Made by a program: the position numbers and the translations under genes
The notes under the pieces: model-generated
The model's database searches: none
Told to the model about the DNA's origin: nothing
The model's input: the letters and a program-made list of their open reading frames with translations, nothing else
Source: Candidatus Aenigmatarchaeota archaeon
Lineage (GTDB): Archaea > Aenigmatarchaeota > Aenigmatarchaeia > Aenigmatarchaeales > Aenigmatarchaeaceae
DNA: 64,000 nucleotides
NCBI GenBank assembly: GCA_043802485.1
Contig: JAZDKZ010000006.1
Span: forward strand, 199,497-263,496
Direction of reading: 5' to 3'
Part shown: piece after piece, positions 21,724-25,121 of the stretch
Layout of the letters: each line of letters opens with the position of its first letter
Position numbering within the stretch: position 1 is the first letter of the stretch

Positions 21724-23204
<1,481 letters not shown>

Positions 23205-23970: not shown

Positions 23971-24237
23971 TCAGACTGATTTCACAAGCTGTCTTTTCGA
24001 AACAATGATGTCCTCTCTCATAACAGTCTTCCTCTTGGATACCTTGGCTATCTGGACAGCTCCCCTGAGCACGTCCATCGCAAACTTCTCTGTCATCCTT
24101 CTGATTTCCTTCTTGCCAATGTCTGATATCTTTATAGAGGGGTCTATCTTTTTCACCATTTTTTTGAAAGGAGCGATCGCAAGTTGTGGCACATAAATCA
24201 CCTTTTTAGACGCTAATACTCTCATTCTGGAAGTCAC
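23971..24237 (-). CDS. Archaeal histone-fold protein
   Basis: LAIAPFKKMVKK...ISDIGKKEIRRMTEKFAMDVLRGAVQIAKVSKRKTVMREDI parallels the HMf-type histone fold (LPIAP...RKT..EDI). Confidence 0.75.
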   Translation of the reverse strand: MTSRMRVLASKKVIYVPQLAIAPFKKMVKKIDPSIKISDIGKKEIRRMTEKFAMDVLRGAVQIAKVSKRKTVMREDIIVSKRQLVKSV

Positions 24238-24321
24238 TGCTTCTAAAAATCCAATAATAACTATTAAGACTCACAATTTAAAAGTCTTACGCTATGAGGC
24301 ATTTGAAAAAGCAGCGATAGA

Positions 24322-24330
24322 TTTAAATAT
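24322..24330 (+). promoter_or_regulatory. TATA-box-like element TTTAAATAT of micro-ORF cassette A
   Basis: It lies 53 nt upstream of the ATG at 24375. The same element sits at the same spacing upstream of the ATG at 24915, and the cassettes are about 77 percent identical over 60 nt. Confidence 0.5.
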
Positions 24331-24374
24331 CATTGATTCTCTTTTAAGATTAGTCAAGATTCGAGGTGAAAATT

Positions 24375-24440
24375 ATGGCAGAAATGAAATTCGATGATGA
24401 AGAAGACGACGACAATTGGGAAGACGAGGACGACGAGTAA
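24375..24440 (+). CDS. 21-aa highly acidic micro-ORF (MAEMKFDDEEDDDNWEDEDDE)
   Basis: GAGGTGAAAATTATG gives a canonical SD at the genome-typical spacing. The ORF is below the track cutoff. Confidence 0.35.
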   Translation: MAEMKFDDEEDDDNWEDEDDE

Positions 24441-24522
24441 GAAGTGATGTTGTTTCTTTCAACACAGGACAAAAAAAAACTTTCCTTTTGATTTTTGTTT
24501 ATTAAAAAATGAGGTGAAAAAT

Positions 24523-24558
24523 ATGGCAAAGAAGAAAGCAGCAAATAAAAAGAAGTAA
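24523..24558 (+). CDS. 11-aa Lys-rich micro-ORF (MAKKKAANKKK)
   Basis: GAGGTGAAAAATATG gives a canonical SD and spacing. A T-run and the hairpin at 24597 follow. Confidence 0.35.
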   Translation: MAKKKAANKKK

Positions 24559-24596
24559 TTTGAACCTATCGATTTCTAACTTTAGTTTTTATTTTC

Positions 24597-24614
24597 GGGT
24601 GTCTGATGACACCC
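24597..24614. terminator. Perfect hairpin GGGTGTC-TGAT-GACACCC after micro-ORF cassette A
   Basis: The hairpin has a 7-bp stem and a 4-nt loop, is preceded by TTTTTATTTTC, and recurs identically at 25009. Confidence 0.5.
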
Positions 24615-24861
24615 ACCATAATTTTTATGCGTGATTCAAATGGATTACAACCCGAGAACTCGGTCTCTAGTTACAAGGTCGCTTGCCGAATACAGGATAA
24701 GAAAATGGTTCAAGACAAAAAAGAGGATTGAACCGTCGCCTGCCAAACTTCTTAGCCAGCTGACAAAGCCGGACGACGGCAGAAGCCTGAAGCTGTTATT
24801 GTGTACAGAAGAATGATATACGAATGGACCAGAAATAATTAAGTTGTTATAACAGTATGAT

Positions 24862-24870
24862 TTTAAATAT
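24862..24870 (+). promoter_or_regulatory. TATA-box-like element TTTAAATAT of micro-ORF cassette B
   Basis: It lies 53 nt upstream of the ATG at 24915. The CTCTTTTAAGATTA block is shared with cassette A at identical spacing. Confidence 0.5.
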
Positions 24871-24914
24871 CCAAAATCCTCTTTTAAGATTATCCAATAT
24901 TTTTGGTGAAAGCT

Positions 24915-24989
24915 ATGGCAACAAAGAAGAAAAAAACAGCAAAGTCAAAGAAAAAGGCAAAGAAGAAAGGAAAGAAAAAGAAAAAGTAG
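24915..24989 (+). CDS. 24-aa Lys-rich micro-ORF (MATKKKKTAKSKKKAKKKGKKKKK)
   Basis: TGGTGAAAGCTATG gives an SD at canonical spacing. A T-run and the hairpin at 25009 follow. Confidence 0.35.
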   Translation: MATKKKKTAKSKKKAKKKGKKKKK

Positions 24990-25008
24990 GACTTTAATTT
25001 TTTATTTA

Positions 25009-25026
25009 GGGTGTCTGATGACACCC
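25009..25026. terminator. Second copy of hairpin GGGTGTCTGATGACACCC
   Basis: It is an identical 18-mer lying between micro-ORF B and the 3' end of the convergent tRNA-His, so it could terminate transcription in both directions. Confidence 0.5.
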
Positions 25027-25049
25027 GGTATAATTTTCTATGAAAAAAA

Positions 25050-25121
25050 GGCCGCAGCCGGGATTTGAACCCGAACCAGGGGCTCCACAGGCCCATATGC
25101 TACCATTACACCACTGCAGCC
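25050..25121 (-). tRNA. tRNA-His(GUG) with an encoded G-1
   Basis: The reverse complement is G-GCTGCAG...CCTGTGGAG...TTCAAATCC...CTGCGGC-C. The anticodon loop is CTGTGGA, and G-1 pairs with C73, the His identity feature. Confidence 0.85.

What the first reader, a model, noticed from the sequence alone, without database searches (positions are those of the whole stretch)
24321..25026. Duplicated promoter-SD-micro-ORF-hairpin cassettes encoding tiny poly-Lys and poly-acidic peptides
Two cassettes (24321-24614 and 24861-25026) share several elements. Each has a TTTAAATAT box, then a conserved CTCTTTTAAGATTA block 17 nt later. Each then has a GGTGA Shine-Dalgarno and an ATGGCA start exactly 53 nt from the box. 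Identity is about 77 percent over 60 nt. Each ends in a T-run and the identical 18-nt hairpin GGGTGTCTGATGACACCC. Cassette A encodes MAEMKFDDEEDDDNWEDEDDE. After a TGTTG/CAACA hairpin and a second SD, it encodes MAKKKAANKKK. Cassette B encodes MATKKKKTAKSKKKAKKKGKKKKK. The strong expression signals, conserved spacing and terminator-like ends argue for real, highly expressed units. They could be micro-proteins such as nucleic-acid-binding polycations with a polyanionic partner. Alternatively they could be small RNAs. Nothing lies downstream that they could attenuate.
Basis: partly seen in the sequence, partly recalled or inferred. Interest (0 to 1): 0.6.

Follow-up and report, generated by a model that had tools for sequence, protein, structure and literature searches.

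The report
Histone-linked acidic and polylysine micro-genes
Two tiny unannotated gene units in an uncultured DPANN archaeon (Aenigmatarchaeota) encode a Trp-containing polyacidic peptide and polylysine peptides. Relatives keep this set next to an unusually basic histone gene, which makes the acidic peptide a testable candidate for a histone partner in archaea, where no histone chaperone is known.

Summary
The window is from an Aenigmatarchaeota genome of 769 kb.

Cassette A is an archaeal transcription unit with these parts:
- a BRE/TATA promoter;
- Shine-Dalgarno sites that are perfect or near-perfect;
- a 21-aa acidic Trp peptide (net -13) and an 11-aa polylysine peptide;
- an end made of oligo-T, a 7-bp GC hairpin and oligo-T.

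It is transcribed divergently from a 73-aa histone with net charge +12. The trio of histone, acidic-Trp micro-ORF and polybasic micro-ORF recurs widely:
- in 25 of 32 distinct metagenome loci, against 0 to 1 hits in control flanks;
- in other genera;
- in four further contigs whose outer flanking genes are all different.

All 29 distinct acidic peptides contain Trp, and 20 end in W, Y or F. Sixteen ordinary, weakly charged histone paralogues of the same family have no such neighbours.

Cassette B is a recent copy found only in this genome. It joins the A promoter directly to a longer polylysine ORF and the A 3' end, and it replaces most of a 346-aa gene that relatives keep.

No Rfam, Pfam or NCBIfam family matches. 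The micro-genes are real (about 0.9). Their function is inferred only: the acidic peptide as a charge-matching, aromatic-anchored histone partner, and the polylysines as polyanion counter-ions. No expression data could be obtained.

The parts
23971..24192 (-). Archaeal histone gene: 73 aa, GTG start behind a GGTGA Shine-Dalgarno, net charge +12. It is the conserved divergent partner of cassette A.
   Evidence: Pfam CBFD_NFYB_HMF at E 5.9e-10. The nearest solved structures are HPhA and HMfB. Orthologues have net +9 to +14 and carry the micro-ORFs; 16 other paralogues have net -2 to +8 and carry none.
24314..24352 (+). Cassette A promoter: BRE-like GCGATAGA, TATA box TTTAAATA(T) at 24322, and the conserved promoter-proximal block CTCTTTTAAGATTA (24339-24352). 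The inferred transcription start is near 24352-24354.
   Evidence: The motif (A/G)GYGATAnnTTTAAATA lies 50-66 nt upstream of the first ORF in 20 of 26 related loci. The transcription start is inferred from the usual archaeal TATA spacing and was not measured.
24363..24369 (+). Shine-Dalgarno GAGGTGA of the acidic ORF.
   Evidence: It is perfectly complementary to the 16S 3' end ...GGATCACCTCCT. The genome holds only 69 GAGGTGA, and 19 of them precede a start codon.
24375..24440 (+). Acidic micro-ORF A1: MAEMKFDDEEDDDNWEDEDDE (21 aa, net -13).
   Evidence: The orthologue in the congener G003 is MAELKFDDYDEEEDWEDDEDDE, with differences by codon position of 3/3/10. All 29 distinct homologous acidic peptides contain Trp.
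24448..24464 (+). Small TGTTG/CAACA hairpin in the A1-A2 spacer. It is not conserved.
   Evidence: It is absent from the G003 spacer. Most relatives carry a roughly 90-nt structured RNA at this position instead.
24511..24517 (+). Shine-Dalgarno GAGGTGA of the polylysine ORF A2.
24523..24558 (+). Polylysine micro-ORF A2: MAKKKAANKKK (11 aa, net +6).
   Evidence: Thirty distinct homologous polybasic ORFs of 7-25 aa were found, starting M-A/G/P.
24581..24629 (+). Cassette A 3' end: oligo-T, hairpin GGGTGTC-TGAT-GACACCC (24597-24614), then ATAATTTTTAT.
   Evidence: The stem GGGTG(T/C)C / G(A/G)CACCC is invariant or compensated in 7 aligned operons, with free loops. It is present in 15 of 32 metagenome loci, always between T-runs.
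24640..24816 (+). Remnant (N-terminal 52-58 codons) of a 346-aa gene of unknown function that is intact in congeners.
   Evidence: tblastn gives 62% identity over residues 1-52, with no other copy in the genome. The full-length gene is present in G003 and G001. It has no Pfam family.
24854..24892 (+). Cassette B promoter: TATA box TTTAAATA(T) at 24862 and the block CTCTTTTAAGATTA at 24879. It is a copy of the cassette A promoter.
   Evidence: 76% identity to A over 62 nt.
24904..24909 (+). Shine-Dalgarno TGGTGA of ORF B.
24915..24989 (+). Polylysine micro-ORF B: MATKKKKTAKSKKKAKKKGKKKKK (24 aa, net +16).
24994..25041 (+). Cassette B 3' end: oligo-T, the identical 18-nt hairpin (25009-25026), then ATAATTTTCTAT. 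It is a copy of the cassette A 3' end.
25049..25121 (-). tRNA-His(GUG), convergent with cassette B. It marks the ancestral right border of the locus.
   Evidence: The same tRNA follows the 346-aa gene in G003.

Best explanation
The two cassettes are genuine, unannotated archaeal micro-gene units.

What is shown:
- Cassette A is the local copy of a conserved bicistronic operon that is transcribed divergently from a histone gene.
- Its order is: BRE/TATA promoter, a short leader with a Shine-Dalgarno fully complementary to the 16S 3' end, an ORF for a polyacidic peptide of about 20 aa that always contains Trp, a spacer, a second strong Shine-Dalgarno, an ORF for a polylysine or polyarginine peptide of 7-25 aa, and then an end made of oligo-T, GC hairpin and oligo-T.
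- The trio of histone, acidic-Trp micro-ORF and polybasic micro-ORF stays together in many diverged genomes while the genes around it change.
- The trio is tied to one histone clade that is unusually basic (net +9 to +14 in 73 aa).
- Cassette B is a recent duplicate found only in this genome. In it the A promoter, Shine-Dalgarno and ATGGCA start are joined directly to a lengthened polylysine ORF and the A 3' end. This is as expected from recombination between the two repeated GGTGAAA..TATGGCA start regions. The copy sits where most of a 346-aa gene was lost.

What is inferred:
- The acidic peptide (net -13, with an aromatic anchor) binds the DNA-binding face of the +12 histone. It would then act as a minimal charge-neutralising partner, chaperone or DNA competitor, in the way that disordered acidic, aromatic-anchored stretches of eukaryotic histone chaperones work.
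- The polylysine peptides act as diffusible polycations, either on DNA or RNA (like an H1 tail or a protamine) or by titrating the acidic peptide.
- The 3' hairpin between two U-tracts terminates transcription and/or protects the 3' end of these very short mRNAs.
For: - Anatomy and duplication.
- Lineage: Aenigmatarchaeota, from the record titles.
- Shine-Dalgarno strength: GAGGTGA is complementary to the 16S 3' end, and the motif is rare in the genome.
- Homologous operons: found in G003, G001, G019, G020 (two copies) and G013, and aligned.
- Metagenome survey anchored on the histone: of 32 distinct loci, 28 have the acidic micro-ORF, 26 the polybasic one and 25 both, all on the divergent strand. 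Controls gave 0/32 on the opposite strand and 1/24 on each strand of the downstream flank.
- Peptide features: Trp in 29/29 acidic peptides, and 20/29 end in W, Y or F.
- Coding signature: in-frame indels, and a 3/3/10 distribution of differences by codon position between this genome and G003.
- Histone clade specificity: linked histones have net +9 to +14; 16 other paralogues of the same family have net -2 to +8, and 0/16 have the micro-ORFs.
- The trio persists with wholly different flanking genes: rhomboid/ARMT1, TFIIB, PGK/FBPase, and CDC48/ParA.
- Promoter: the BRE/TATA motif is conserved.
- Hairpin: the stem is conserved with one compensated pair and one G-U variant.
- Origin of B: the 346-aa gene is intact in G003 and G001 and reduced to a remnant here.
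- Literature analogy: the aromatic anchors W485 and Y476 in the disordered acidic domain of APLF bind the histone DNA-binding surface and are needed for chaperone activity (PMC6101569). Histone chaperones are described as 'virtually absent from prokaryotes' (bioRxiv 10.1101/2021.11.30.470311).
Against: - There is no transcript, ribosome or peptide evidence.
- Conserved linkage in one histone clade could partly be phylogenetic inertia.
- No fusion of the histone with either peptide exists. All 68 homologues are about 73 aa.
- Polybasic micro-ORFs of the same style also occur away from histones, at C7:86026 beside a tRNA and beside POR genes in relatives. The polycation is therefore not histone-specific.
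- In this genome and in G003 the acidic peptide ends in D/E and not in an aromatic residue.
- Peptides of 7-11 residues may be too short-lived to act in trans.
- Binding was not modelled or measured.
Confidence: 0.5

Rival explanations
1. The peptides are real, but they are general polyelectrolytes of a reduced cell. The polylysines would be RNA- or ribosome-associated micro-proteins (like bS22, bL37 or eL41) or genetically encoded substitutes for polyamines. The acidic peptide would be their neutralising partner. The histone linkage would be incidental, arising from a highly expressed neighbourhood next to the 16S rRNA and tRNA genes.
For: - Polybasic micro-ORFs with the same promoter, Shine-Dalgarno and terminator style occur at other conserved loci unrelated to histones.
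- The locus lies next to the 16S rRNA and tRNA-His genes.
- No spermidine synthase was detected in this genome or its genus, although the search detected it in 10 of 14 control genomes.
- Earlier scan notes report tiny polylysine genes in other ultra-small organisms. These notes are unchecked.
Against: - The acidic-Trp ORF follows the hyper-basic histone through complete turnover of the flanking genes. In several of those loci no rRNA or tRNA is nearby.
- There is no match to eL41 or to any NCBIfam or Pfam family.
- The low-complexity, variable-length sequences do not look like site-specific ribosomal proteins.
Confidence: 0.25
2. The act of translation matters and the peptides do not. The ORFs would be cis-acting leader or sensor ORFs, with poly-Lys and poly-Asp/Glu codon runs sensing charged tRNA or stalling ribosomes, and would control a downstream gene or the stability of the transcript.
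For: - The codon runs are strongly biased towards one amino-acid class, and some ORFs are only 7-11 codons long.
- A hairpin with U-tracts follows.
- In congeners a co-oriented gene follows cassette A.
Against: - The downstream gene differs or is absent from locus to locus. Cassette B faces a convergent tRNA.
- The hairpin lies 38 nt beyond the stop codon, and no alternative structure overlaps the ORF. Fold z-scores are only -0.5 and -1.6.
- The invariant Trp and the aromatic C-termini point to selection on the peptide itself.
Confidence: 0.07
3. The polylysine peptides are exported polycations that act on membranes or on the host, in this presumed episymbiont. The acidic peptide would be an intracellular neutralising partner, comparable to an anionic pro-piece.
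For: Oligolysines are membrane-active polycations (general knowledge). DPANN archaea depend on hosts (general knowledge). The polycation and polyanion are encoded as a pair.
Against: There is no signal peptide, no hydrophobic segment, and no transporter or processing gene conserved beside the module. The conserved neighbour is a histone.
Confidence: 0.05
4. The cassettes are small non-coding RNA genes, and the ORFs are incidental readings of purine-rich tracts.
For: Purine-rich tracts are free of stop codons in every frame. The conserved 3' hairpin could be part of an sRNA. Relatives carry a structured RNA inside the operon.
Against: - No Rfam family matches, even at a permissive threshold.
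- There is no significant fold beyond the terminal hairpin.
- Shine-Dalgarno sites lie at the correct spacing before every ORF in about 30 loci.
- The GAN codon periodicity with wobble variation and the 3/3/10 pattern of differences point to coding.
- The CTGATGA in the hairpin loop is not conserved, so it is not a C/D box or K-turn element.
Confidence: 0.04

Closest known systems
Disordered acidic, aromatic-anchored histone-binding stretches of eukaryotic histone chaperones (APLF acidic domain; the cap-anchor motifs of Spt16, YL1, ANP32E and Nap1)
   Same: A short disordered run of Asp/Glu is punctuated by an essential aromatic residue (W or Y). The proposed target is the basic DNA-binding face of a histone-fold dimer. 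The charge magnitude matches the partner (-13 against +12).
   Different: Here it is a free-standing peptide of 13-32 aa encoded next to the histone, not a domain of a large protein. It is archaeal and has no sequence homology. Binding is untested. Trp is preferred, often at the very C-terminus.
Prothymosin-alpha / linker histone H1 polyanion-polycation pair
   Same: Extreme, opposite net charges in disordered polypeptides, in the context of chromatin.
   Different: The peptides here are 5 to 10 times shorter, are co-transcribed as a pair, and belong to a prokaryote. No interaction data exist.
DSS1/Sem1 (Pfam PF05160)
   Same: A small, very acidic, Trp-studded disordered protein that binds basic grooves and can mimic DNA.
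   Different: No Pfam match at E<=10. The peptide is a third of the length, the conserved spacing of the DSS1 Trp residues is not seen, and DSS1 is restricted to eukaryotes.
Tiny polybasic ribosomal proteins (eL41/eS32; actinobacterial bS22 and bL37)
   Same: Products of 10-35 aa that are almost purely Lys/Arg, are strongly expressed, and are easily missed by annotation.
   Different: No match to PF05162 or to any NCBIfam model. Length and sequence vary greatly between close relatives. There are several paralogous loci. A polyacidic partner ORF is present.
Lys/Ala-rich H1-like nucleoid proteins (chlamydial Hc1/Hc2, H1 C-terminal tail)
   Same: K/A-rich low-complexity polycation that plausibly coats nucleic acid.
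   Different: Much shorter (11 and 24 aa), with no repeat architecture and no homology.
Metazoan replication-dependent histone mRNA 3' stem-loop
   Same: A short 3' hairpin conserved in sequence, with a 4-nt loop, on mRNAs tied to chromatin proteins.
   Different: Here the hairpin is flanked by U-tracts like a terminator, its loop is free to vary, it does not lie on the histone mRNA itself, and no binding protein is known. This is an analogy only.

Membership tests
Ribosomal protein eL41/eS32 (PF05162) | Match to the family profile | tested here: not met
   There was no hit in this genome or in 12 relatives at E<=0.1. The control was weak: the search gave hits below the cut-off in only 2 of 14 control genomes. 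No Pfam hit for the peptides at E<=10.
Ribosomal protein eL41/eS32 (PF05162) | Resides in the ribosome | not testable with these tools
   Needs ribosome purification or cryo-EM.
bS22 / bL37-type tiny ribosomal proteins | Match to curated NCBIfam models | tested here: not met
   No NCBIfam family at E<=10.
DSS1/Sem1 (PF05160) | Match to the family profile | tested here: not met
   No Pfam family at E<=10 for four acidic peptides of 21-32 aa.
DSS1/Sem1 (PF05160) | Small acidic protein with conserved Trp residues | tested here: met
   29/29 acidic peptides contain Trp, and 64% of their residues are Asp or Glu. This is a resemblance in composition only.
Acidic aromatic-anchor histone-binding motif (chaperone-like) | Acidic stretch with an aromatic anchor residue or residues | tested here: met
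   The motif definition comes from PMC6101569.
Acidic aromatic-anchor histone-binding motif (chaperone-like) | Association with a histone | tested here: met
   Genomic linkage only: 28/32 loci against 0-1 in controls, specific to the hyper-basic clade, and kept despite turnover of the flanking genes.
Acidic aromatic-anchor histone-binding motif (chaperone-like) | Direct binding to the histone and competition with DNA | not testable with these tools
   Needs ITC, EMSA or NMR, or at least a multimer structure prediction, which was not available.
Transcription-attenuation leader peptide | A conserved co-oriented downstream gene under its control | tested here: not met
   The downstream gene varies or is absent.
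Transcription-attenuation leader peptide | Alternative terminator/antiterminator structures overlapped by the ORF | tested here: not met
   There is only one terminal hairpin, 38 nt past the stop codon. Fold z-scores are -0.5 and -1.6.
Known ncRNA families (Rfam 15), including C/D-box and K-turn RNAs | Covariance-model match, or conserved C/D boxes | tested here: not met
   No Rfam hit on the cassettes. The CTGATGA of the loop is replaced by CCTTGG, GAAA, ATTC and others in relatives.
LysW/ArgW amino-group carrier proteins | Zinc-ribbon CxxC pairs plus a C-terminal EDWGE tail | tested here: not met
   No Cys occurs in any acidic peptide, and the termini are mostly W, Y or D/E. The family features are recalled from general knowledge.
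Archaeal nucleosomal histone (for the neighbouring gene) | Histone fold profile match and the RKT DNA-binding motif | tested here: met
   PF00808 at E 5.9e-10. KRKTV is conserved. HPhA and HMfB are the nearest solved structures.

The most novel reading that the evidence does not exclude
The acidic-Trp micro-protein would be the first dedicated partner of an archaeal histone: a free-standing, roughly 20-residue chaperone or DNA competitor with an aromatic anchor. The co-transcribed oligolysines would act as histone 'tails in trans' or as antagonists of the acidic peptide. Together with the hyper-basic histone they would form a three-part, charge-driven chromatin switch in DPANN archaea.
Probability: 0.3. 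Interest if true: 0.85.

Novelty: new variant of a known kind. Interest (0 to 1): 0.66.

Why it matters
Histone chaperones and readers are regarded as eukaryotic inventions. They are described as 'virtually absent from prokaryotes' (bioRxiv 10.1101/2021.11.30.470311), and how archaeal histones are kept from aggregating or are regulated is an open question.

This locus offers a concrete candidate that is cheap to test. The parts are a 21-residue peptide that can be synthesised, a 73-residue histone, and polylysine peptides. All three are conserved as a unit.

The locus also shows that gene callers miss strongly signalled genes of 7-32 codons in reduced genomes. Five of six of these peptides are absent from a collection of 15 billion proteins. 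Such micro-genes can duplicate and replace ordinary genes.

Tried and rejected
1. Known ncRNA. The Rfam gathering scan of the window and permissive scans of five cassette loci found only the 16S rRNA and tRNA genes.
2. K-turn or C/D-box reading of the CTGATGA in the hairpin. Rejected because the loop is not conserved.
3. The hairpin as a genome-wide terminator or a transcription-factor palindrome. The exact pattern occurs only at the cassettes in this genome. In 301 genomes of the phylum it turned up outside the cassettes only twice. This matches my own estimate of chance (about 4-5 hits) and the 3 hits given by the reversed-pattern control.
4. eL41. Not found, but the control was weak.
5. Pfam and NCBIfam searches on the peptides. 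Nothing at E<=10.
6. A fusion of the histone with either peptide (Rosetta stone). None found: all 68 homologues are about 73 aa, within a range of 54-84 aa.
7. Global RNA structure of the transcripts. Not significant. The apparent pairing between the post-hairpin ATAATTTTT and the A1 start region is not kept in cassette B or in G003.
9. Literature searches for polylysine or acidic micro-proteins in DPANN archaea. Nothing relevant was found.
10. The polyamine-surrogate idea. Spermidine synthase is absent from this genus. This is compatible with the idea but not discriminating.
11. A structure prediction of a histone-peptide complex was not possible, because the tool predicts single chains only.
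Full report
**Observation**

The window is archaeal. It holds a 16S rRNA gene at 21724-23204 (-) and several tRNA genes. It lies in a 769-kb, 7-contig genome of 44% G+C. Close relatives are labelled Candidatus Aenigmatarchaeota.

- TTTAAATAT at 24322 and 24862;
- CTCTTTTAAGATTA 17 nt later in both;
- GGTGA at 24365, 24513 and 24905;
- ATGGCA at 24375, 24523 and 24915, so the first ATG of each cassette is 53 nt from its box.

The promoter-to-start segments are 76% identical over 62 nt. The 18-mer hairpin occurs exactly twice, where 0.04 is expected with up to 3 mismatches, and nowhere else in the genome.

**The cassettes read as archaeal expression units**

TTTAAATA is a consensus archaeal TATA box (general knowledge). 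It is preceded here by a conserved GCGATAGA-type BRE. The motif (A/G)GYGATAnnTTTAAATA lies 50-66 nt upstream of the first ORF in 20 of 26 related loci.

The block CTCTTTTAAGATTA then falls between the TATA box and the inferred start of transcription near 24352. It is therefore promoter DNA and not leader RNA.

The 16S rRNA ends ...GGATCACCTCCT, so GAGGTGA pairs with it over 7 nt. The genome has only 69 GAGGTGA. Nineteen of them precede a start codon, and two of those nineteen belong to cassette A.

Each unit ends with oligo-T, a 7-bp GC hairpin and a second T-run. Apart from that hairpin the transcripts have no significant fold (z = -0.5 and -1.6). No Rfam family matches.

**Comparative evidence for coding**

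A congener (G003) has the same cassette A in the same place. Its acidic ORF reads MAELKFDDYDEEEDWEDDEDDE and its basic ORF reads MAAKKKAKAAAKKSKKK.

Against this genome there are in-frame indels, and the substitutions fall 3/3/10 on codon positions 1/2/3. They mostly interchange GAT, GAC, GAA and GAG.

Homologous operons occur in G001, G019, G020 (two copies) and G013. Seven of them align along their whole length.

Cassette A is transcribed divergently from a histone gene (23971-24192, -). The gene matches Pfam CBFD_NFYB_HMF, and its nearest solved structures are HPhA and HMfB. It encodes 73 aa with net charge +12.

I used an alignment of this histone to fetch 39 metagenome loci. Of these, 32 are distinct and have at least 500 nt upstream of the histone. 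On the divergent strand:

| Feature | Loci |
|---|---|
| Shine-Dalgarno-led acidic micro-ORF | 28 of 32 (27 with an aromatic residue) |
| Polybasic micro-ORF | 26 of 32 |
| Both | 25 of 32 |
| Either kind, opposite strand of the same DNA (control) | 0 of 32 |
| Acidic ORF, downstream flank, each strand (control) | 1 of 24 |
| Polybasic ORF, downstream flank (control) | 0 of 24 |

Pooled with the genome-derived operons, the peptides look like this:
- All 29 distinct acidic peptides contain Trp. Twenty end in W, Y or F. The median length is 19 aa and net charge runs from -7 to -18.
- The 30 polybasic peptides are 7-25 aa (median 10). They start M-A/G/P and carry +4 to +16.

The linked histones form a clade with net charge +9 to +14. 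Sixteen other histone paralogues from the same archaeal family have net -2 to +8, and none has such neighbours.

Four further contigs keep the trio although every other neighbour differs: rhomboid and ARMT1-like; TFIIB; PGK and FBPase; CDC48 and ParA-like. One of these contigs comes from a MAG labelled Hadarchaeaceae. The order of the acidic and basic ORFs is also sometimes swapped.

Linkage that survives this much rearrangement argues for a functional module and not just inherited gene order.

**Origin of cassette B**

In G003 and G001 the order is: histone, operon, a 346-aa gene of unknown function, then a convergent tRNA-His.

In this genome only the first 52 or so codons of that gene remain (24640-24816; 62% identity; no other copy). 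Cassette B fills the rest of the interval up to the tRNA.

B matches the A promoter from about 25 nt upstream of the TATA box through ATGGCA. It matches the A 3' end from the stop codon to 16 nt beyond the hairpin, including the identical loop. It lacks the acidic ORF and the spacer. No relative has a second unit of this kind.

B is therefore a young derivative. It most simply arose from a duplicate of A by recombination between the two repeated GGTGAAA..TATGGCA start regions, followed by lengthening of the lysine run. This route is inferred.

**The hairpin**

Across three genera and 15 metagenome loci the stem GGGTG(T/C)C / G(A/G)CACCC is kept. There is one compensated pair (U-A to C-G in G001) and one G-U variant. 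The loop varies freely: TGAT, CTTG, GAAA, ATTC, ATTT, TTCG.

The CTGATGA seen here is thus accidental and is not a C/D box. The hairpin always sits between T-runs, and it follows the polybasic ORF whatever lies beyond. It is therefore a 3'-end element of this mRNA, either a terminator or a protective stem. That role is inferred.

**Function (inferred)**

No Pfam or NCBIfam family matches any peptide at E<=10. eL41 is not detected (with a weak control). Five of six peptides are absent from a collection of 15 billion proteins. No histone-peptide fusion exists.

The best-supported reading rests on three points:
- the conserved linkage;
- the charge match (-13 against +12);
- the invariant aromatic residue.

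Together these recall the disordered acidic, aromatic-anchored histone-binding stretches of eukaryotic chaperones. In APLF, W485 and Y476 bind the DNA-binding face of the histone and are required for activity (PMC6101569). Chaperones are reported as virtually absent from prokaryotes (bioRxiv 10.1101/2021.11.30.470311).

The polylysines are probably general polyanion binders, because similar micro-ORFs occur at other conserved loci. One lies at C7:86026 beside a tRNA. Another lies beside POR genes.

Spermidine synthase is absent from the genus. This is compatible with a polyamine-like role but is not decisive.

**Limits**

Binding was neither modelled nor measured. Earlier notes from this scan report similar acidic-Trp and polylysine micro-ORFs in other archaea and in ultra-small bacteria. 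I treated these as leads and not as evidence.

**Verdict**

These are real, conserved, unannotated micro-genes (about 0.9). Together with a hyper-basic histone they form a conserved module, and that linkage is shown. The histone-partner mechanism is plausible but untested (about 0.3 to 0.4). Cassette B is a recent duplication-deletion derivative.

Noticed in passing
L055:1168-1267 (-), L054:1971-2070 (+), L056:1960-2059 (+) and 10 further loci (alignment A5); absent from window 24441-24510: In most relatives the spacer between the acidic and basic ORFs holds a conserved structured RNA of about 90 nt. It is a long closing helix carrying two hairpins, with an invariant CUGAC/GUCAG stem. Ten of 25 predicted pairs show compensatory changes, and no Rfam family matches. 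This genome, G003 and G013 have lost it.
   Followed up: partly
Own genome C7:86026-86076 (locus L117:1227-1277), with L012, L051 and L010 (alignment A4): There is a second conserved polybasic micro-gene family (here MAAKKKAKKTTKKKKR), about 70% identical in DNA across four genera. Its order is: TATA box, an inverted repeat in the leader, GAGGTG, the ORF, a hairpin GACC-(C/U)GA..GAUGA-GGUC, and a U-run. The tandem G-A pairs of the hairpin look like a K-loop or K-turn, a possible L7Ae site. A tRNA gene follows on the same strand in 3 of the 4 loci.
   Followed up: partly
L003:1527-1583 (-) and L004:1497-1538 (+): A third polybasic micro-ORF family (MAKKKAKKGKKK...) lies beside pyruvate:ferredoxin oxidoreductase genes in two different families of the order. 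Each copy has its own TATA box, GGTGA, and a T-run, hairpin, T-run end.
   Followed up: partly
window 24640-24816 (+): This is a pseudogene remnant of a 346-aa gene with no Pfam family. The gene is conserved directly downstream of the operon in two congeners (L002:1527-2567; L054 from 2306).
   Followed up: yes
window 24193-24321, and the equivalent intergenic DNA in L002, L015, L005 and L054: The histone leader and promoter region is conserved. It holds a minus-strand TATA box (TTATAAAT or TTTTAAAT) and a GGAAGT-N4-ACTTCC hairpin in the histone 5' leader. In G020 (L005) a copy of this leader and of the operon occurs without the histone immediately beside it; the histone lies 3.7 kb away, next to a second operon copy.
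   Followed up: no
G002 contigs C1 and C5, positions 10-120 (L006, L031, L046): The polylysine ORF with its GGGTGC..GCACCC hairpin lies at the very start of two contigs. Histone fragments end two other contigs. This suggests the histone and micro-gene region is duplicated in that genome too and breaks the assembly.
   Followed up: no
L118 (GCA_041862315.1, JBGVTA010000077.1): A MAG labelled Candidatus Hadarchaeaceae carries the same trio of hyper-basic histone, acidic-Trp micro-ORF and polybasic micro-ORF. Either the module reaches beyond Aenigmatarchaeota or the contig is mis-binned.
   Followed up: no
Own genome C6:168004 (+), outside the window: A 31-codon ORF behind a perfect GAGGTGA (VGINVWKEMKKKPKKGSIMHEIEKVGKKKKK) may be another unannotated lysine-rich micro-protein gene.
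   Followed up: no
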